Below, in pieces: positions 33,442 through 53,620 of a stretch of DNA of 64,000 nucleotides. The notes beneath the pieces are model-generated. The model was not told the DNA's origin. It saw nothing but the letters and a program-made list of their open reading frames with translations, and made no database searches. The position numbers and the translations under genes were made by a program. Numbering within the stretch: position 1 is the first letter of the stretch; each line of letters begins with the position of its first letter. The stretch is from the human T2T-CHM13v2.0 reference genome, Homo sapiens: the NCBI RefSeq assembly GCF_009914755.1, contig NC_060938.1; one strand, 5' to 3'.

Positions 33442-34326
33442 GGTGGGAAAAGAAATAAAAGTCTTTATTGATAAATAGCTTACAATTATACAAACAGAGC
33501 AGTGGGTTTGTTGGGGAATAAAAACTAGGGCAGAGGCTCAATCTCTCTCCATTTCCACCCCGGCGCTAGGCCTCAGCCCTCTGATTGAACACTTTGGATG
33601 ATGAGGCCTTGATGGACAACCCAGGCTTTCTCAGGCCCTTGGAGGCCTCTGTCTTCCCGGTCAGGTGTGCAGGCACCACCTTGGACCCACTGCCCCTAGC
33701 AGGAGAAGCTGCCTTGGTGTTTGGCTCCTGCCCAGCACCCTGGGCAGCTGCCCTTTTAGGGGCCTTGGCCTTGGCCACCACCTTCTTTTTGGTGGGGGAA
33801 GCAGCACCGTTCTTGACCTTGCTAGCCGTGGGTTTTGAACTCTTACTCCCAGCTTTGATATTCCTGTGAGCCTCAGCGTCTCCTTAGCTGCTCCTGCTGC
33901 CTTTGGCCTTTGGCTTCTTGCTGAGCCCACTGGCACAGGAAGAGGCCTACATGGCTTTGCCTTTGTGTCCTCAGCCTCACTGCCCTGCTGGGGGGGGTGG
34001 GGGCTTCTCCTTGGCTGCATCTAATTTGGGAGACGTCGGCAGCTCTGCTGGCCTCTTGGCTGCTTTTTTCACCTTGCCCGAGTTGGGAGGGTCCTTCTTT
34101 GCCTCACCTGGTTTGTTGGGGCCCTTTCCCCTGGCCTCATTAGCTATCCTGGGGGCTGTCCGGGGGAGCCATCTTCCTAGACTGAATTTTCATCTTGTAC
34201 TTGGGAATGAATTTGAAGCTGCCAGCAGCCCCCCAGCCTTGGAGTTGAGGGGCCTGGCGAGGAGGTTGAGGTACACGCTGGTGGCCAGGACCTGCTTCAG
34301 TATGTACTTGAAGTGGAGGATGTCCC
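33442..34326 (-). pseudogene. Processed, 5'-truncated pseudogene of oocyte-specific linker histone H1-8 (H1FOO)
   Basis: Minus-strand translation DILHFKYILKQVLAT...LLARPLNSKA...GSFK...KVKKAAKRPA...KPTASKVKNGAASPTKKKVVAKAKAPK...GSGSKVVPAHL...KASSSKVFNQRAEA* matches recalled H1-8; no introns; frameshifts; stops at 33947-33949 and 33884-33886; 3' UTR with AATAAA at 33464-33469 (-). Confidence 0.93.
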
Positions 34327-34771
34327 CAGGAGAACCAGTCCTTCCAGCCGTTCCAGAGTGTCTTGTGTCCCAGCCTGCTAGGCTGGAGTAGAGGAGGTCA
34401 GAAGAGGAGGCAGCTTGGCCTGTTCTGGGGATTCAGAAGCTAGCCACCCTCCCCAGTCCAGACCCTGGGCCCGATTCAGCGTAGCAGGTGCTGGAGGATA
34501 GATAGCGTGCTAACCGCTGATGGGGACAGAGAAGCTGAAAGAGCACTTGGCCATGAATTGGAACTAGATTCTGCCCCAGCTCTGCAGCTTACTAGCTGTG
34601 CGGCCTTAGGGAAAGTTACTCTCCTGCCTTGGGCCTCGGTTTCCTAGTAAAATGAGGGGATTGGACCAGATGACCTTTGCTATTACTTCACATTCTAACA
34701 ATCTATGATCCTGGCTATTATTTGAAAACTCAGAGGGATTCTAGCAAAGCTTATGGAAGACTACAGTGTTC

Positions 34772-35068
34772 TTTTTTTTTTTTTTTTTTTTTTGAGACAG
34801 AGTCTTTCTCTGTCGCCCAGGCTAGAGTGCAGTGGCAGCGATCTCGGCTCACTGCAACCTTTGCCTCCCAGGTTCAAGCAATCTTCTTGCCTCAGCCTCC
34901 CGAGTAGCTGGGATTACAGGCATGCACCATCACACCCGGCTAATTTTTGTGTTTTTAGTAGAGACGTCATGTTGGTCAGGCTGGTCTTAAACTCCTGACC
35001 TCAGGTGATCCACCCGCCTTGGCCTCCCAAAGTGCTAGGATTACAGGTGTGAGCCACCGTGCCCAGCC
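34772..35068 (-). mobile_element. AluS
   Basis: TSD CAGTGTTCT. Confidence 0.95.
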
Positions 35069-35556
35069 CAGTGTTCTGTTTATAGAGCAAATACAGATTT
35101 TTCACTATTTCTGCTGCTTTGCCCAACATCCCTTTCATCTGCTCTTTTGGGGGTGATGTCCTTCTCAGAGTCCATGGGATTCTGTTGAGGCTGCCAATCA
35201 GAGTGCTGGGCCCTAGCCCTGGACACACTCATTGGCCTAAGAGTTGATTACTAGACCCAAGAAGACCAATCAGAATCTTTCCCTGAATGCGTATGTGTGG
35301 ATACAAGGAAAAAAAGAGAACTCACTTCTCGGGTTGCAGAACCAATACAAACCTGGAGATGTGTGCTCCCTACCCTCCTCCCTACCATCCCGTCCCTCCC
35401 GGTGTAGACACCTCTTCATCTTTCCCCCTCATCATGGTGGCTCATCTAGGGCAGGAGAGAGAAGCGGAGGCAGGAACCGGCAGGAAGGAGGGAGGTCGGG
35501 CAGTGGCCTTACTACAGGAACATGTCAGATGTCAGATTCCCCGTATTTGGAGGGGG

Positions 35557-36981: not shown

Positions 36982-37738
36982 TTAAGAGCTCTAGATAGAT
37001 AAAAATTGCCAGGTGTCTTTCCAGAAAGATAATACCAGTTCACATTCTGACAAAATTGTCCGAGTACTTTTGTCACTGTACATACTACATTTTATTTATA
37101 AACATTTGTCAATTTGATTGATAAAAATTATGTCTTATTTTAATATGTATTTCTCTGATTACTAGAGAGGGTGAATCTTTTTTGTAGCTGAATGGCATTT
37201 TTATTTCTTCTATAAATTACAGTCCACTGCTGTTTTTCCCCATTCAATTTTAGTGCTGCCCTCATGGATTGATAACCATTTTGTCATATTTGTACAGACA
37301 GCTTTTTCTTGTTTGCCATTTGTCTTTTAATTCTGTTTATGAGGATTTAGAGTTTTTCAAAAGGAAAATATCCCTGCAAACTGATGAGTCCTGAATGTTA
37401 TTTTTTTTTACCTGGATGAGTTTCTGCTTTGCTTCCAGGAATTGCTTCTGTGCCTGAGGCAGGGGGCTGGCAGGGGTTGGAGGGCCAGGGTCAGGGCTCA
37501 GCTCTCCTGGTGCAGGGGCAGGCCCATACTCCTGGGATCCCAATTCAGCCTCACAAACCCGAAGCTAAAGAACTGCAAATGGTTCTTTAGACTGGCCGCC
37601 ACCTCCATTTTATGATCTCTATCTTTTTCTATCTCTCTCTCTTTCTTTCTGTCTTTCTTTCCTTCTTTCTTCTGGGGGCTGTGAAGGTGGTTCATTCCCG
37701 GGATTTACAAGGTCTAAAAATCAGTTTTGAAAAACCAG

Positions 37739-42033: not shown

Positions 42034-42413
42034 TGATATGGTTTGGCTCTATATCCCCATCCAAATCTCATGACAAACTGTAATCCCCAAAGTTGGGGGA
42101 GGGACATGGTGGGAGGTGATTGGATCATTGGGGTGAATTTCTCCCTTGCTGTTCTCATGATAGTGAGTTCTCACAAGGTCTGGTTGTATAAAAGTGTGTA
42201 GCACTTCCCCCTTCGCTCTCTCTCTCCTGCCAGCCATGTGAAGACCATGCCTGCTTCCCCTTTGCCTTCTACCATGATTGTGAGTTTCCTAAGGCCTCCC
42301 CAGCCACGCTTCCTGTACAGCCTGTGGAACTGTGAGTCAATTAAACCTCTTCTCTTTATACATTACCCACTCACAGGTAGTTCTTGATAGCAATGTGAGA
42401 ACGGACTAACACA
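42034..42413 (+). mobile_element. MSTA/THE1D-like MaLR solo LTR
   Basis: TGATATGGTTTGGCTC...GAGAACGGACTAACACA; TSD GCAAT/GCAGT. Confidence 0.85.
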
Positions 42414-42493
42414 GCAGTAGAAGAGCTGAATAAGGAAGGGCTCTTTCCATTTTGTGAGCCTTAAGAAACTAGAATCTGCCTTGTTCTTTGGGG

Positions 42494-43397
42494 TATAAAC
42501 TTGAAATCCTAAGCCCCCCCATTGACTGAATGGATCCCCTTGTGGCCAAGGGGACCCCATTAAAACCTTAAAACTGACTTCCTGGCCATGACGGGACAGA
42601 AAATCAGACACCTCGTTACACCCCCTCCCTCTTCTGGTTTAGACACAACAACTGACAAGCCTTAATGTTAAAACAGAGATTCTAAAACTGACAGAACAGA
42701 TTCTTTGTGGCAATAAGGTATCAAATTATAAACAGAACCTAAGGCCATGCCAGGCAAAGGTTAAGTCACCCACTCCTACACTTATAGAATAAACTATGTC
42801 CCAACTGCCACAAGGTTTTTCTTTTTCTCTAGCAGCTAAACTAGAGCGCTGGCCTTGAGATAAGCAATATTAAAACAATTACAGTTCATCCAGCTCACAG
42901 AGGCTAACTACCTGACCCTTGTTCCACAAGCCGTAACTACAGCTTTGACTGGACAAGAGACTGATTTCAGTAACTTTCTCCAGATAAGACCACCAACCAT
43001 GGACTGGTTCTGGCCAGTTTACAGAGACTGCACACTTGCATGTTTCTGGATCCTGAAAAGACCTTCTGATGTATAGGGCCTAATCATAATACGTTTAAAA
43101 GTTATGTCCCCACCCCAAAGTGGGTCATATGTTACATGCATGTTCGTTCAATGCACATGCATCAGGATTGCCTCATGAATATTCACAGCTCCTCCTGTAA
43201 CCTGTTGAATATGTATGTTTAGCCAACCTGTTCAGCATAAAGCTCCTACCCCAAGCCTTCCTCCTTCGAAATGCCTGTCTCTGGTCTTGTCCAGAGGCAC
43301 CCTTTCCAGCCTGCTGTACCCCCGTTATAAGAAATAAACTCTTCTCTCCTTTCTGCATTTATAAATCTTGTGTGTGGTTTTCTTCTTAAAGTTAACA
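42494..43397 (+). mobile_element. MER4D-like ERV1 solo LTR
   Basis: AAATCCTAAGCCCCCC..GACTGAATGGA...GGCCATGACGGGA...AAGTTAACA. Confidence 0.75.
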
Positions 43398-43529
43398 GGG
43401 ATAATTATATCCCAGCCCTCAAGGCCAACACAAGCAGCTGCCAACATTTCAGAATGCTTGGGGAATGCAATGTCCTGGCAAATTGAAGATCTGTATGAAT
43501 GGAGTGGCCCAGCTTACTCAGAGTGACTT

Positions 43530-43915
43530 GCTCACTTATCCACTCAACAAAGCATTGGAGAATGCCTGCCGGGTGCCTGACTCCATGTACTGTTCTAGGT
43601 GCTGAAATGCAGCAGTAAAAGAGGGAGATTGTTGGCTGCTTTGGTGGAACCTACTTTCTAATAGAGGGAGAGAGAAGACAAATCAATCAAGAATGCACAT
43701 GAAAATATCAGACACTGATAAATGCCACTGAGGAAGTAAACGGAAGGCCGCACCTGGGGAGCCACACTGCTGGGTGGTCAGGAAGGAAGGGACATTTTAA
43801 CAGAGATGGAGTGATGAGGACTCACCTCGTGAAGACCTGGAGGAAGAGCAAGTGGAGCAGCCGACACAGCTGGGGCAAAAACCCTACAGCAGGGATGAGC
43901 TCAGTATCTCAGAGG
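43530..43915 (-). mobile_element. L2
   Basis: Antisense L2 3' region: CACTCAACAAAGCATTGGAG...GAAGACCTGGAGGAAGAGC. Confidence 0.65.
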
Positions 43916-44499
43916 CGCTGCCTCCGACAGAAAAGAATAACAGCACATCCCCCGAGTTTCTAGAGGTTTCAACCAAATTTTGTTCTTTTGAAGACTCAGG
44001 TTTTATCTTTAAAATGAAAGCAAATTTTGGGTTCCAGTCTTTGAGACAACCATATTTATTTTTGTGTTAAACCTATCTGTCTTTAAAAAAAAAAGAGAGA
44101 GAGAATATACTTGGATTGAGGTAAGCCAAGATTAAACTTCTAAAAGGTAACATCCCATAGTCCAGAGAAATCTGACGCAAGGTAGCTAGATGCCATTTCA
44201 TCCTCGTGTTTATCGTTCACCTGGCAGTGACAGAATCTGGGCCTCCAGTAAGTCCAAGTCCAATTCTCAAGAACACATGACAAGATCTGACTTGGGTGGG
44301 ACAGGAAACCTCCTTGGTGGGTTATTTCCTCCATTCCCCCAACCTTAGATCCTGCACAACACACATTATCAGCAGGTTTGTTCCTGAACCCCAGGACCAT
44401 GACTCAAGGCCATGAACAACTTAACCCAAGCAATCTAGGAATCCTGGCCTGTGCGGTGTGCCACATCACCTGGTCAGATCATCTCCTCATCAGATGACT

Positions 44500-44858
44500 G
44501 GTATGGCCTGAATTGTGTCACCCTCGCATTTATACACTAACGTCCTAATCCCCAGTACCTTAGAATATGGCCGAATTTGGAAGTAGGGCCTTTAAAGAGA
44601 TGATTAAGATTAAATGAGATCATGTGGTGGGCCCTACTCCAGTATGACTGGTGTCCTTATGAGAAAGGAAGAGCGACCAGGGATGTTCACTCACAGAGGA
44701 AAGGCCATCTACAAGCCAAGGACAGAGGCCTTGGAAAAAACCAAACCTGCTGACACCTCGATCTTGGACTTCTAGCCTCCAGAACTGTGAGTAAATTTCT
44801 GTTGTTTAAGTCATCCAGTCTGTGGTATCGTGTTACAGCAGCCCTGCCAGATTAATAC
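44500..44858 (+). mobile_element. MLT1B-like MaLR solo LTR
   Basis: TGGTATGGCCTGAATTGTGTC...GACTTCTAGCCTCCAGAACTGTGAG...ATTAATACA. Confidence 0.85.
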
Positions 44859-45076
44859 AATAACCCAACAAGAGCCCAAGGTGAGGGGACTCCAGGGAAT
44901 GGGCACCCCAAAAGTAAAGTTTTAGAGTTTCCTTTCCCAAAGTTTTCTCCACCCGAGATAGAGTGGTCACTGGTTGGCTTCCTTCCTCATACCTTTAGAA
45001 CTCACCACGGGCCAGCTCCATGTCCCCAGCTGGGCACTGTGTCTCTGACTCAATCCATTCCTTTCCCAGCCCTCAG

Positions 45077-45859
45077 GATCCTGTGCTAATGAAGGCATCA
45101 TCAGCTTCAGCCACGCTTTTGTTCTCTACACCATCCCTTCAAAGATGGAGGTTGGGGCAAGGACCCCTCCCTGGAACCAGGCCAAAGGTTCAGTATTGGA
45201 AAAGCATTGATTCTTTCCCCATAGTCCTTAAATATTCTTTTTACAAAGACTACACCAGATTAAAACAGTTCCGTGGCACAATCTCTACAGGTCTGTTAAT
45301 TCAGGACAGAGCTCTGGAATTAATGGCCAAGAACAAGAACCAGCTTTATTATAACTGCAACAATTCCAACAACATGTGCTGGGTAAATATTACCTCCAAC
45401 AAAGTCCAAACTAGCCTATAGCCAAATGCAGCTTATAACCATGATTTTCCCTATACTTCTTCCTCCTAGCAAGATTTGGACTTCTCTCTTGATGAATCAG
45501 GCCTCTAGGTCATACATCCAACTGGAGAAGCCAGAAGTAACATCATCTTGGCCAAAACCAACAAGTCCACCTCCCAGTTGTCCCTCCTCTGGGAAACCGC
45601 CCATTTGGCTCTGCAGCCAGCACTGCCTTCGTGGCATGTGGTGTAATGGATGTAACCAGGACAGTGTGTACCAAAGCTAAGAAAATAGTCTCCATGTATG
45701 ACACCAAGGCCAAAAAGGAAAAGTATGCCAGCGTCTGGTTCAAAAGTGGAGAAATGAGACAAACCTGTCTGATGACCCAACTGTACATCCCATCCAATCT
45801 ATGAGTCCAGCTATGGTGACTGGAGCCACTACGATGTTTATTCTTATAGCGACATGTGA
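45077..45859 (+). pseudogene. Terminal olfactomedin-domain exon of an unprocessed OLFM4-like pseudogene
   Basis: After a pyrimidine-rich acceptor (AG 45075-45076), across frameshifts: (G)SCANEGIISFS, GGWGKD, QYW, GQSSG, LYYNCNNSNNMCWVNITSN, PNAAYNHDFPY, *QDLDFSLDESGL*VI, SNIILAKTN, AFVACGVM, MYDT, HYDV, TGA. Colinear with recalled OLFM4 GSCGHGGVVNIS...GAWGRD...PNAAYNNRFSY...WQDIDFAVDENGLWVI...AFMVCGVL...YYDT...NYDL. Confidence 0.9.
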
Positions 45860-46044
45860 GGAAGGTAACAGGAGTATCAGGCGAGGGAAAGGGTGAGGCT
45901 CCTTGGGACTAAGCACACTCATATTTGTTGGTTTGTTTGCTGAGTGTGTGTTTGCTTGTGTCTTTATTTTACGCAGAGGGCATTCCTCAAATGCTGGGTG
46001 ACCTTGGCTGTCTGTTCATATTTAAGAGTGAGACATCAAAAGTT

Positions 46045-47310
<1,266 letters not shown>

Positions 47311-52483: not shown

Positions 52484-53620
<1,137 letters not shown>

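What the first reader, a model, noticed from the sequence alone, without database searches (positions are those of the whole stretch)
45077..45859. Fossil of an intron-containing olfactomedin-4-like gene, possibly an unannotated unitary pseudogene
Seen: a whole olfactomedin beta-propeller domain can be read across frameshifts. It begins at a good acceptor in phase 1 (AG|GA TCC TGT) and ends at TGA 45857-45859, giving 783 nt. Two conserved Trp codons have become TAG (45467-45469 in WQD, 45506-45508 in GLWV), and there is a further stop at 45419-45421. Known: the OLFM4 last exon also starts G|SCG and encodes the whole OLF domain. Inference: the preserved exon boundary and heavy divergence from OLFM4, including an extra Cys pair (YYNCNNSNNMC) absent from my recollection of OLFM4, point to a distinct paralog lost in this lineage rather than a retrocopy. 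The context has no olfactory-receptor genes, unlike the known OLFM5P locus. The ORF track shows only fragments of this exon.
Basis: partly seen in the sequence, partly recalled or inferred. Interest (0 to 1): 0.88.

Follow-up and report, generated by a model that had tools for sequence, protein, structure and literature searches.

The report
Dead olfactomedin gene relic, chromosome 14
Between ESRRB and VASH1 the human genome holds the broken last exon of an old olfactomedin gene, different from OLFM4 and OLFM5P and not annotated in RefSeq, which records a gene loss in our ancestry.

Summary
Window 45077-45859 (+) (T2T chr14:70,911,077-70,911,859) reads collinearly as an olfactomedin (OLF) domain. 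A genome-wide Pfam scan scores it 71.5 bits, E 1e-16. It has three in-frame TAG stops, at 45419, 45467 and 45506, and four to six frameshifts.

The exon starts at an AG acceptor in the same place and phase as OLFM4's last exon. No upstream exons are detectable, and the last ~30 codons are only weakly supported. The DNA is unique in the genome, and RefSeq annotates nothing there.

It belongs to the OLFM4/OLFM5/olfactomedin/tiarin subfamily. Nesting inside eutherian OLFM4 is rejected (AU p 0.006). It carries a Cys pair seen in 0 of 93 OLFM4 and 0 of 12 OLFM5 proteins, but in 14 of 14 turtle "olfactomedin-like" and 99 of 103 amphibian relatives. Its deeper placement is unresolved.

Decay at invariant columns suggests about 0.2 substitutions per site since it died. 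From recalled rates that is very roughly 100 million years.

Verdict: an unannotated, probably unitary pseudogene, a new member of a known kind. Interest is moderate.

The parts
45060..45076 (+). Pyrimidine-rich tract and AG acceptor (AG = 45075-45076) of the relic last exon
   Evidence: Sequence read. It has the same place and phase (phase 1, Gly codon split) as the OLFM4 last-exon acceptor seen in L001.
45077..45859 (+). Relic last exon encoding a whole olfactomedin (OLF) domain, disabled by stops and frameshifts
   Evidence: Pfam OLF 71.5 bits, E 9.9e-17, in the whole-genome scan. Collinear HMM hits. Frameshift-aware alignments. Subfamily profile A1 E 2e-34 and 1.4e-17; note that A1 contains five pieces of this exon, so those two scores partly reflect self-match.
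45082..45084 (+). Cys codon at the start of the domain (G-S-C), first of the family's conserved Cys
   Evidence: Aligned with the G-S/T-C of all subfamily proteins.
45106..45135 (+). Zone of the first frame change
   Evidence: Placed at 45106 or 45133 depending on the guide protein. HMM pieces 45067-45126 and 45132-45179 lie in different frames.
45177..45188 (+). Zone of the second frame change
   Evidence: 45177-45183.
45245..45325 (+). Stretch with a probable pair of compensating frame changes; the alternative frame recovers the G-Q-x-x-G motif
   Evidence: Used by the platypus- and OLFM5P-guided alignments but not by the others. Uncertain.
45356..45379 (+). Extra Cys pair (TGC 45356-45358 and TGC 45377-45379) in Y-Y-N-C ... 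M-C
   Evidence: Distribution over 242 proteins: 0/93 OLFM4, 0/12 OLFM5, 14/14 turtle olfactomedin-like, 99/103 amphibian.
45419..45421 (+). In-frame TAG stop
45467..45469 (+). In-frame TAG where relatives have Trp (W-Q-D)
45491..45508 (+). D-E-S-G-L-stop: the family's D-E-x-G-L-W motif with its Trp codon turned to TAG (45506-45508)
   Evidence: The motif is named in a passage of PMC4206993.
45593..45602 (+). Zone of a frame change
   Evidence: The genome scan splits its match here.
45637..45642 (+). C-G of the conserved C-G-V motif (TGT 45637-45639), second conserved Cys of the domain
45778..45787 (+). Zone of the last frame change
   Evidence: 45778-45787. The reading downstream is weakly supported.
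45857..45859 (+). TGA, possibly the native stop codon
   Evidence: It lies 7 codons after Y-D, where relatives end 5-8 codons after Y-D. Support for this tail is weak.

Best explanation
This is the decayed last exon of a gene that once encoded a secreted olfactomedin-family glycoprotein of the OLFM4/OLFM5/olfactomedin/tiarin subfamily. By analogy with its relatives, that protein had an N-terminal signal peptide and coiled coil and a C-terminal OLF beta-propeller.

The gene was a paralogue in its own right, not a copy of human OLFM4 or OLFM5P. It was of the type that keeps an extra Cys pair in the propeller, as amphibian tiarin-like proteins and turtle 'olfactomedin-like' proteins do.

It was inactivated in place, in the interval between ESRRB and VASH1, and has drifted neutrally since. 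That makes it a unitary pseudogene. It makes no protein now, and no present function is indicated.

Shown: the domain, the lesions, the acceptor, its uniqueness in the genome, and its exclusion from eutherian OLFM4.

Inferred: in-place inactivation, the lineage assignment, and an age of death of very roughly 100 million years.
For: Domain and subfamily
- OLF profile match at E 9.9e-17, above the curated cut-off.
- Collinear pieces across the whole domain.
- The N-terminal part beats 199-200 of 200 shuffles.
- Conserved first Cys, C-G motif and D-E-x-G-L-(W->stop) are all in place.
- In a 57-row maximum-likelihood tree, the clade of all 53 subfamily rows including the fossil has 100/99 support against MYOC, OLFM1, OLFM3 and ADGRL3.

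Gene structure
- The acceptor has the same place and phase as in OLFM4.

Not a copy of a living human gene
- Three TAG stops and 4-6 frame changes.
- Nearest human paralogue is OLFM4 at about 40% identity, then OLFM5P at 36%.
- No other unassigned OLF match in the genome: 22 matches (all with E below 1 lie at the 14 known OLF genes, OLFM5P or this locus) and 21 (all of them).
- The DNA is single-copy.
- AU test rejects a place inside eutherian OLFM4 (p 0.00645, delta lnL 14.1).
- The OLFM4+OLFM5 clade (95/83) excludes the fossil.

Lineage-typical characters (242 proteins)
- Cys pair: 0/93 OLFM4, 0/12 OLFM5, 14/14 turtle olfactomedin-like, 99/103 amphibian.
- G-G-W-G-K: 0/93, 0/12, 56/103 amphibian.
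- C-G-V-M: 0/93, 0/12, 10/14 turtle.
- Y-D-T-K: 1/93, 0/12, 85/103 amphibian.
- Mean BLASTP score of the reading is 120 bits against the amphibian/turtle set and 110 against the OLFM4 set.

Decay
- The fossil keeps 17 of 26 columns that are at least 98% invariant. OLFM4 keeps 26/26 and OLFM5P 25/25.

Synteny lead
- Table 6 of PMC6786245 lists a salmon gene named OLFM4 in one run with VASH1, ANGEL1, ESRRB, TGFB3, DLST, AREL1, FCF1, RPS6KL1 and PROX2.
Against: - No upstream exon was found in the window or elsewhere on chr14. tblastn with 120 and then 287 proteins gave only hits of about 20-27 bits, one of them inside a masked repeat. The N-terminal HMM gave a best E of 2.5, with plus and minus strands alike.
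- The profile that finds the upstream exons of OLFM4 and OLFM5P finds none here. A whole gene in place is therefore not shown.
- The deep position is unresolved. The fossil sits in a polytomy on a 2.7 branch.
- AU does not reject sister positions to amniote OLFM4 (p 0.305), mammalian OLFM4 (p 0.199), OLFM5 (p 0.38) or turtle olfactomedin-like (p 0.236).
- The four characters may be ancestral states rather than shared derived ones. Some teleosts have them, and the frog protein P0143, sister to OLFM4 in the tree, also has the Cys pair.
- Best identity to any protein retrieved is only 35-38%. No close orthologue was found, and no mammalian protein of the Cys-pair type. However, the lists show only 120 of 702 and 120 of 541 hits.
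- The 3' tail is weakly supported.
- The salmon list gives no coordinates, and STARD13A (human 13q) stands next to the run. The paper's supplements, which would give positions, were closed.
Confidence: 0.75

Rival explanations
1. It is an old duplicate of OLFM4 made in stem mammals or stem amniotes. It would then be a sister of the OLFM4 clade, not a member of the amphibian/turtle Cys-pair lineage, and it died later.
For: OLFM4 is the best-matching human paralogue. AU does not reject the fossil as sister to amniote OLFM4 (p 0.305) or to mammalian OLFM4 (p 0.199). The frog protein P0143, sister to amniote OLFM4 in the tree, still has the Cys pair, so an early OLFM4-line duplicate could have kept it.
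Against: The free tree puts the fossil outside the OLFM4+OLFM5 clade (95/83). None of 93 OLFM4 orthologues, from mammals, birds, crocodilians, squamates and turtles, has the Cys pair, G-G-W-G-K or C-G-V-M. A stem-mammal origin would therefore need parallel losses. The locus is on another chromosome from OLFM4.
Confidence: 0.12
2. It is an ancient retrocopy, 5'-truncated, or a partial DNA copy of a subfamily gene whose parent was lost elsewhere. It would not be a gene that died in place.
For: Only one exon's worth of sequence is detectable and no upstream exons were found. In this family the last exon holds the whole domain, so a truncated copy would look similar.
Against: Similarity starts exactly at an AG acceptor with a pyrimidine tract, at the same position and phase as the OLFM4 intron. 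This reading needs two events, a copy and the loss of the parent, and leaves no second fossil in the genome. The salmon gene list suggests an olfactomedin gene in this syntenic block. N-terminal exons of this family are poorly conserved and would be expected to fade first.
Confidence: 0.1
3. The sequence is still used, either as a coding exon read in some unusual way or as a conserved non-coding element or RNA.
For: None from these tools. The 4.2 kb around it is not repeat-masked.
Against: There are three stops and at least four frame changes. 9 of 26 family-invariant residues are lost. There is no RefSeq gene, transcript or functional element over it; the nearest lncRNA starts at 53314 on the other strand.
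Confidence: 0.02
4. It is a chance resemblance or a low-complexity artefact.
For: The outermost pieces are individually weak: E 0.03-0.06, and 5-31 of 200 shuffles reach the score of the C-tail.
Against: E 9.9e-17 in a search of the whole 3.1 Gb genome. Pieces are collinear in the right order. It is the only such match outside the known OLF genes and OLFM5P.
Confidence: 0.01

Closest known systems
Human OLFM4 (13q14)
   Same: It is the best-matching human paralogue, about 40% identity over about 220 aligned codons. The whole OLF domain lies in the last exon, and the acceptor has the same position and phase. It is in the same subfamily clade.
   Different: OLFM4 is intact with four further exons. 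It lacks the extra Cys pair, as do 93 of 93 orthologues. The fossil is rejected from inside eutherian OLFM4. They are on different chromosomes.
Human OLFM5P (11p15.4), the known pseudogene of this subfamily
   Same: Both are dead members of the same subfamily in human. OLFM5P is 36% identical to the fossil. A sister position to the OLFM5 clade is not rejected (p 0.38).
   Different: OLFM5P is young: its last exon is still an open frame of 269 codons, it keeps 25/25 invariant columns, and its upstream exons are still found. It lies among OR51/OR52 genes, and many mammals have intact orthologues. The OLFM5 group has no Cys pair (0/12). The chr14 fossil is far more decayed and is not annotated.
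Amphibian tiarin / 'olfactomedin-4-like' expansions (for example Xenopus laevis Tiarin, P0225) and the frog olfactory-mucus olfactomedin
   Same: They share the Cys pair (99/103), G-G-W-G-K (56/103) and Y-D-T-K (85/103) with the fossil. They give the highest mean similarity to it and fall in the same polytomy. A passage of PMC4206993 places the original olfactory-epithelium protein in subfamily V and describes tiarin as a Xenopus family member.
   Different: They are intact and often in many copies on one contig. The tree recovers no clade with the fossil. Which frog gene, if any, is the orthologue is unknown. That the bullfrog proteins include the classic olfactomedin is my recollection, not a result.
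Turtle 'olfactomedin-like' proteins (P0149-P0159, P0187, P0190 and others, about 457 aa)
   Same: They are the only clear amniote group of the Cys-pair type retrieved (14/14). They share C-G-V-M (10/14) and the one-residue-shorter loop before P-N-A-A. A clade with the fossil is not rejected (p 0.236).
   Different: A clade with the fossil is not favoured either (delta lnL 4.1). Identity is about 31%. They have G-A-W-G-K and Y-D-T-R. Their genomic position is unknown here.

Membership tests
Olfactomedin-domain proteins (Pfam PF02191) | Match to the OLF profile above the curated cut-off | tested here: met
   71.5 bits against a cut-off of 23.9, E 9.9e-17, in the genome scan, read through 3 TAG. 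A stop-free piece, 45601-45777, scores 31.3 bits on its own.
Olfactomedin-domain proteins (Pfam PF02191) | Conserved Cys at the start of the domain, the C-G motif, and D-E-x-G-L-W (motifs named in a passage of PMC4206993) | tested here: met
   TGT 45082-45084; TGT-GGT 45637-45642; D-E-S-G-L at 45491-45505 followed by TAG in place of Trp.
Olfactomedin-domain proteins (Pfam PF02191) | An open reading frame that can make the domain | tested here: not met
   3 in-frame stops and 4-6 frame changes. It is a pseudogene of the family, not a working member.
OLFM4/OLFM5/olfactomedin/tiarin subfamily ('subfamily V' in PMC4206993) | Groups with the subfamily against other OLF subfamilies | tested here: met
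   The clade of all 53 subfamily rows including the fossil has 100/99 support against MYOC, OLFM1, OLFM3 and ADGRL3. OLFM4 and OLFM5P are the best human matches.
OLFM4 (orthologue or recent copy) | Falls within the OLFM4 clade of its own taxonomic group | tested here: not met
   AU test rejects fossil plus eutherian OLFM4 (p 0.00645). Sister positions to mammalian or amniote OLFM4 are not rejected (p 0.199 and 0.305).
OLFM4 (orthologue or recent copy) | OLFM4-type residues at the Cys-pair, G-A/S-W-G-R and C-G-V-L positions | tested here: not met
   The fossil has the Cys pair, G-G-W-G-K and C-G-V-M. These occur in 0 of 93 OLFM4 orthologues.
Cys-pair lineage (amphibian tiarin-like, turtle olfactomedin-like) | Extra Cys pair in Y-Y-N-C...C | tested here: met
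   TGC 45356-45358 and 45377-45379. Present in 14/14 turtle and 99/103 amphibian proteins. It may be an ancestral state, since 9/17 teleosts have it.
Cys-pair lineage (amphibian tiarin-like, turtle olfactomedin-like) | Forms a clade with these proteins | tested here: inconclusive
   Polytomy in the careful tree. Fossil plus turtle group gives delta lnL 4.1, p 0.236.
Cys-pair lineage (amphibian tiarin-like, turtle olfactomedin-like) | Orthologous position (between ESRRB and VASH1) in other vertebrates | not testable with these tools
   No vertebrate genomes or gene context are on hand. The only lead is the salmon gene list in PMC6786245, Table 6.
Processed pseudogene (retrocopy) | Coding similarity runs across the former exon junction without an intron | tested here: not met
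   Similarity begins at the AG acceptor. The frame upstream has a stop 9 codons before the boundary Gly codon (TGA 45049-45051) and no match to any of 287 proteins.
Processed pseudogene (retrocopy) | Poly(A) tail and target-site duplications | not tested
   Not expected to survive about 0.2 substitutions per site, and the 3' UTR length is unknown.
Unitary pseudogene | Disabling lesions and no working counterpart or parent copy in the same genome | tested here: met
   Lesions. Nearest human relatives are about 40% and 36% identical. Single-copy DNA. No further OLF relic.
Unitary pseudogene | Working orthologue at the same locus in another species | not testable with these tools
   See the synteny row above.

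The most novel reading that the evidence does not exclude
The human chr14 relic is the mammalian orthologue of the gene lineage that gave amphibians tiarin and the original olfactory-mucus olfactomedin, and turtles their 'olfactomedin-like' gene. That gene would have sat next to VASH1/ESRRB since the common ancestor of bony vertebrates and been lost in early mammals. If so, mammals lack the founding member of the olfactomedin family, and the human genome still shows where it was.
Probability: 0.4. Interest if true: 0.5.

Novelty: new member of a known kind. Interest (0 to 1): 0.36.

Why it matters
It adds a third member, dead and so far unannotated in RefSeq, to the human OLFM4/OLFM5P subfamily. 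It also marks the place of a gene loss in our ancestry.

If synteny confirms the link to the amphibian and turtle Cys-pair genes, it would explain why tiarin and the classic frog olfactomedin have no mammalian counterpart. It would also give a dated loss event for comparative work on olfactory and mucosal matrix proteins.

Practically, it is a candidate entry for pseudogene catalogues, and a possible source of spurious OLF-domain hits in six-frame searches of 14q24.3. It has no evident medical bearing.

Tried and rejected
Upstream exons
- tblastn of 120 and then 287 subfamily proteins against the whole window gave nothing above about 27 bits outside 45000-45900.
- The best-scoring place, 34795-34938, lies in a masked repeat.
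- 37080-37244 is full of stops.
- An HMM of N-terminal halves against all six-frame pieces gave a best E of 2.5, and the minus strand scored as well as the plus strand.
- Profile A1 over the whole genome found the upstream exons of OLFM4 and OLFM5P but none on chr14.

Finding a close orthologue
- Three protein word searches were run: the OLFM4 last-exon frame, the OLFM5P frame, and profile A1 of turtle and frog proteins plus five stop-free pieces of the fossil.
- None returned a protein more than 35-38% identical to the fossil, and none returned a mammalian Cys-pair protein.
- Searches list only 120 of 702 and 120 of 541 hits. Candidates known from samples alone were left out (418, 243 and 6553). 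The length window applies too. So this blank is weak.

Two-lineage idea
- I considered that marsupial, alligator and turtle proteins of about 467 aa were a second amniote OLFM4 lineage whose eutherian member is the fossil.
- I dropped it. In the tree they follow the species tree as plain OLFM4. The fossil's place among turtles in that tree is a long-branch effect; it moved once more diverse rows were added.

Resolving the deep position
- Five AU tests were run. Only the eutherian-OLFM4 placement is rejected.

Literature
- No paper holds olfactomedin + 'unitary pseudogene', olfactomedin + ESRRB + VASH1, or 'olfactomedin-4' + 'vasohibin-1'.
- 'OLFM4P' finds only cell-type labels.
- 'OLFM5P' finds five unrelated association or expression papers (listing only).
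- olfactomedin + pseudogene + 14q24 finds two unrelated papers (listing only).
- 'tiarin' is swamped by a ciliate genus name.

Not attempted
- Structure prediction and the Atlas search were not used. They would not bear on orthology.
Full report
WHAT IS THERE

The window is T2T chr14:70866001-70930000. The finding lies in the 260 kb between ESRRB and VASH1. Nothing is annotated by RefSeq at 45077-45859, and the stretch 42372-46595 is not repeat-masked.

- a pyrimidine-rich run ending in AG at 45075-45076, then GA TCC TGT;
- TAG at 45419, 45467 and 45506;
- TGA at 45857.

IS IT MORE THAN CHANCE?

Yes. A six-frame scan of the whole 3.1 Gb reference with Pfam OLF (PF02191) returns 22 matches. All those with E below 1 lie at the 14 known OLF genes, at OLFM5P, or at this locus. 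Here the scan gives:
- window 45323-45601, E 9.9e-17, 71.5 bits against a cut-off of 23.9, profile 72-165, three TAG inside;
- window 45613-45750, E 0.0033, profile 170-215.

Stop-free pieces match on their own (best 31.3 bits, E 2e-7). An HMM I built from subfamily domains hits the three-frame pieces in collinear order from position 3 to 234.

My own protein-to-DNA alignment with frameshift states, run with five guide proteins, gives a continuous domain from 45070/45076 to 45765-45856 at 35-40% identity. It needs frame changes near 45106-45135, 45177-45188, 45593-45602 and 45778-45787. It may also need a pair near 45245-45303 and 45322-45325 that recovers the G-Q-x-x-G motif.

Against 200 mononucleotide shuffles, the N-terminal third (45060-45322) is reached by 0-1 shuffles (z 3.6-7.6). 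The last 40 codons are reached by 5-31, so the 3' tail and the TGA as native stop are only suggestive.

GENE STRUCTURE

In OLFM4 the whole domain is in the last exon (open frame of 290 codons, profile 2-245). Primate OLFM4 proteins part company with the genomic reading exactly before G-S-C-G. The acceptor there is tgtatAG|GG AGC TGT.

The fossil has cctcAG|GA TCC TGT. That is the same position and the same phase 1, with a pyrimidine tract in front. This is what a gene with introns leaves behind, and not what a retrocopy leaves.

The rest of the gene is not detectable:
- tblastn with 120 and then 287 proteins found nothing;
- an N-terminal HMM against all six-frame pieces gave a best E of 2.5, with both strands alike;
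- a subfamily profile over the whole genome finds OLFM4's and OLFM5P's upstream exons but nothing more on chr14.

The N-terminal halves of these proteins are much less conserved than the propeller (alignment). Their loss from view is therefore expected, but it remains a gap. The 901 bases around the exon occur once in the genome.

WHICH GENE WAS IT?

Among human paralogues OLFM4 is closest (41% over 88 residues in the best segment, E 2e-21), then OLFM5P at 36%.

Three protein searches gave 287 named proteins:
- OLFM4 orthologues (120 of 702 listed);
- the OLFM5 group, turtle 'olfactomedin-like', frog, sturgeon and teleost proteins (all 67);
- amphibian expansions including Xenopus Tiarin, more turtles and one lizard (120 of 541 listed).

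No protein is more than 35-38% identical to the fossil. The amphibian/turtle set scores higher on average than the OLFM4 set (120 against 110 bits).

I chose 51 of the 287 proteins by hand to cover all groups, and added five human rows and the fossil. In the careful maximum-likelihood tree of these 57 rows, the subfamily including the fossil has 100/99 support against other OLF subfamilies. Inside it the fossil hangs on a 2.7 branch in a polytomy with sturgeon, turtle olfactomedin-like, salamander/caecilian, frog, and the clade Phrynosoma + (OLFM5 + (Ascaphus P0143 + OLFM4)). The OLFM4+OLFM5 clade (95/83) excludes the fossil.

AU tests:

| Fossil held together with | p-AU | delta lnL |
|---|---|---|
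| eutherian OLFM4 | 0.00645 (rejected) | 14.1 |
| amniote OLFM4 | 0.305 | 4.8 |
| mammalian OLFM4 | 0.199 | 8.6 |
| OLFM5 | 0.38 | 2.5 |
| turtle olfactomedin-like | 0.236 | 4.1 |

So the tree says only that this is an old, separate member of the subfamily and not a young copy of OLFM4.

Discrete characters say more. These were counted over the 242 proteins of at least 420 residues. The human and chimpanzee OLFM5P models, one latrophilin fragment and all shorter rows were left out.

| Character in the fossil | OLFM4 | OLFM5 | Turtle olfactomedin-like | Amphibian | Teleost | Sturgeon |
|---|---|---|---|---|---|---|
| Cys pair | 0/93 | 0/12 | 14/14 | 99/103 | 9/17 | 0/2 |
| G-G-W-G-K | 0/93 | 0/12 | 0/14 | 56/103 | 8/17 | 0/2 |
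| C-G-V-M | 0/93 | 0/12 | 10/14 | 5/103 | 8/17 | 0/2 |
| Y-D-T-K | 1/93 | 0/12 | 0/14 | 85/103 | 5/17 | 2/2 |

The Cys pair is also present in the single lizard protein (1/1).

A drifting pseudogene does not gain two cysteines at the family's own positions. So the gene was of the Cys-pair type when it died. These states may be ancestral: the frog protein P0143, sister to OLFM4 in the tree, also has the pair. They therefore exclude crown OLFM4 and OLFM5 more firmly than they prove kinship with the turtle or frog genes.

WHEN DID IT DIE?

At columns at least 98% invariant across the 242 proteins, the fossil keeps 17 of 26 residues. Human OLFM4 keeps 26/26 and the young pseudogene OLFM5P keeps 25/25.

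The minimum number of base changes at first and second codon positions is 9 of 52, which gives a Jukes-Cantor distance of 0.20. At the 95% threshold it is 15 of 72, giving 0.24. The sample is small, and end-of-alignment errors would inflate the estimate.

Three stops and four to six frameshifts in 783 bases fit a somewhat lower figure. Using human-lineage neutral rates that I recall rather than computed here, 0.1-0.25 substitutions per site means some 60-150 million years. That points to a loss in early placental or earlier mammalian history, not a human- or ape-specific event. This dating is inference.

SYNTENY LEAD

One paper, read in passages only, lists genes under selection in Atlantic salmon (PMC6786245, Table 6). 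In one run of names it gives VASH1, OLFM4, RPS6KL1, AREL1, FCF1, ANGEL1, DLST, ESRRB, GPATCH2, TGFB3 and PROX2.

All but OLFM4 have human counterparts on 14q24.3. VASH1, ANGEL1, ESRRB and TGFB3 (and GPATCH2L, which the salmon name GPATCH2 resembles) appear in the neighbourhood listed. The human positions of the rest are my recollection. Other runs in that table also look like syntenic blocks. This suggests that a teleost gene named OLFM4 lies in the block where the human fossil lies.

The table gives no coordinates. STARD13A, whose human counterpart is on chromosome 13 like OLFM4 (my recollection), stands just before the run. The supplements that would settle it are closed. It is a lead, not a test.

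WHAT IT DOES

Nothing now, as far as can be told. There is no open frame, no RefSeq transcript or functional element, and family-invariant residues have been lost.

What it did is inferred from relatives: a secreted, coiled-coil-multimerised glycoprotein with a C-terminal five-bladed OLF propeller. The closest solved structures to a turtle relative are noelin/OLFM1, latrophilin and myocilin OLF domains. No member of this subfamily is in the PDB list at E 1e-10 or better.

NOVELTY

The family, the fold and the phenomenon are all known, and OLFM5P is a precedent. What is new is this locus.
- It is absent from the RefSeq annotation supplied.
- No paper in the library links olfactomedin with this interval or with a unitary pseudogene.
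- GENCODE and pseudogene catalogues could not be consulted, so 'unannotated' holds for RefSeq only.

VERDICT

The relic is best described as an ancient, probably unitary pseudogene of a third human member of the OLFM4/OLFM5 subfamily, of the Cys-pair type. Interest is moderate, at 0.36. It would rise somewhat if synteny shows it to be the lost mammalian counterpart of tiarin and the original olfactomedin.

Noticed in passing
window 42712-42765 (+): Best plus-strand hit of the N-terminal HMM within about 30 kb upstream of the relic exon (HMM 74-91 of 215). Its E is 2.6, no better than minus-strand hits, so it is not evidence of an upstream exon.
   Followed up: partly
window 34762-35075 (weak protein hits at 34795-34938, +): 44 OLFM4-type queries give 25-27-bit tblastn hits here to the region around the exon 4/5 junction. 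The interval is a masked repeat, and the reading looks like a translated Alu (the Alu call is my recollection). It is a false lead for anyone hunting upstream exons.
   Followed up: yes
L002 and G000 chr11:5577858-5582449 (-), OLFM5P: The OLFM5P last exon is still an open frame of 269 codons that keeps 25/25 invariant columns. The subfamily profile also finds two upstream exons (5580090-5580257, with one TGA, and 5582285-5582449). A human protein model (P0121, 308 aa) and a chimpanzee 'olfactomedin-4-like' model (P0122, 380 aa) exist in public sources.
   Followed up: partly
protein P0215: A Platysternon megacephalum record named 'alanine aminotransferase 1' is 91% identical to Chrysemys 'olfactomedin-like' and carries only the OLF Pfam domain. 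It looks misnamed in the source.
   Followed up: no
proteins: Frogs carry many paralogues of the Cys-pair type on single contigs. For example, eight Dendropsophus proteins share a longest-contig length of 106643427, and six Mixophyes proteins share 133958006. This suggests tandem arrays. No mammal, bird or crocodilian appears among the 120 listed.
   Followed up: no
protein P0239 (Phrynosoma, 798 aa): This is the only squamate protein with the Cys pair. It is much longer than its relatives (possibly a fused model) and sits on a long branch (1.2) next to the OLFM4+OLFM5 clade with weak support (81/57).
   Followed up: no
window 33445-34227 (-): The annotated H1-8P2 pseudogene lies 11 kb upstream on the other strand. 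It is unrelated to the olfactomedin relic.
   Followed up: no
literature: A review of primary congenital glaucoma (PMC4741182, search listing only) holds both 'olfactomedin' and '14q24'. I recall a glaucoma locus mapped to 14q24.3 and that myocilin is an olfactomedin protein. With a dead relic this is most likely coincidence.
   Followed up: no
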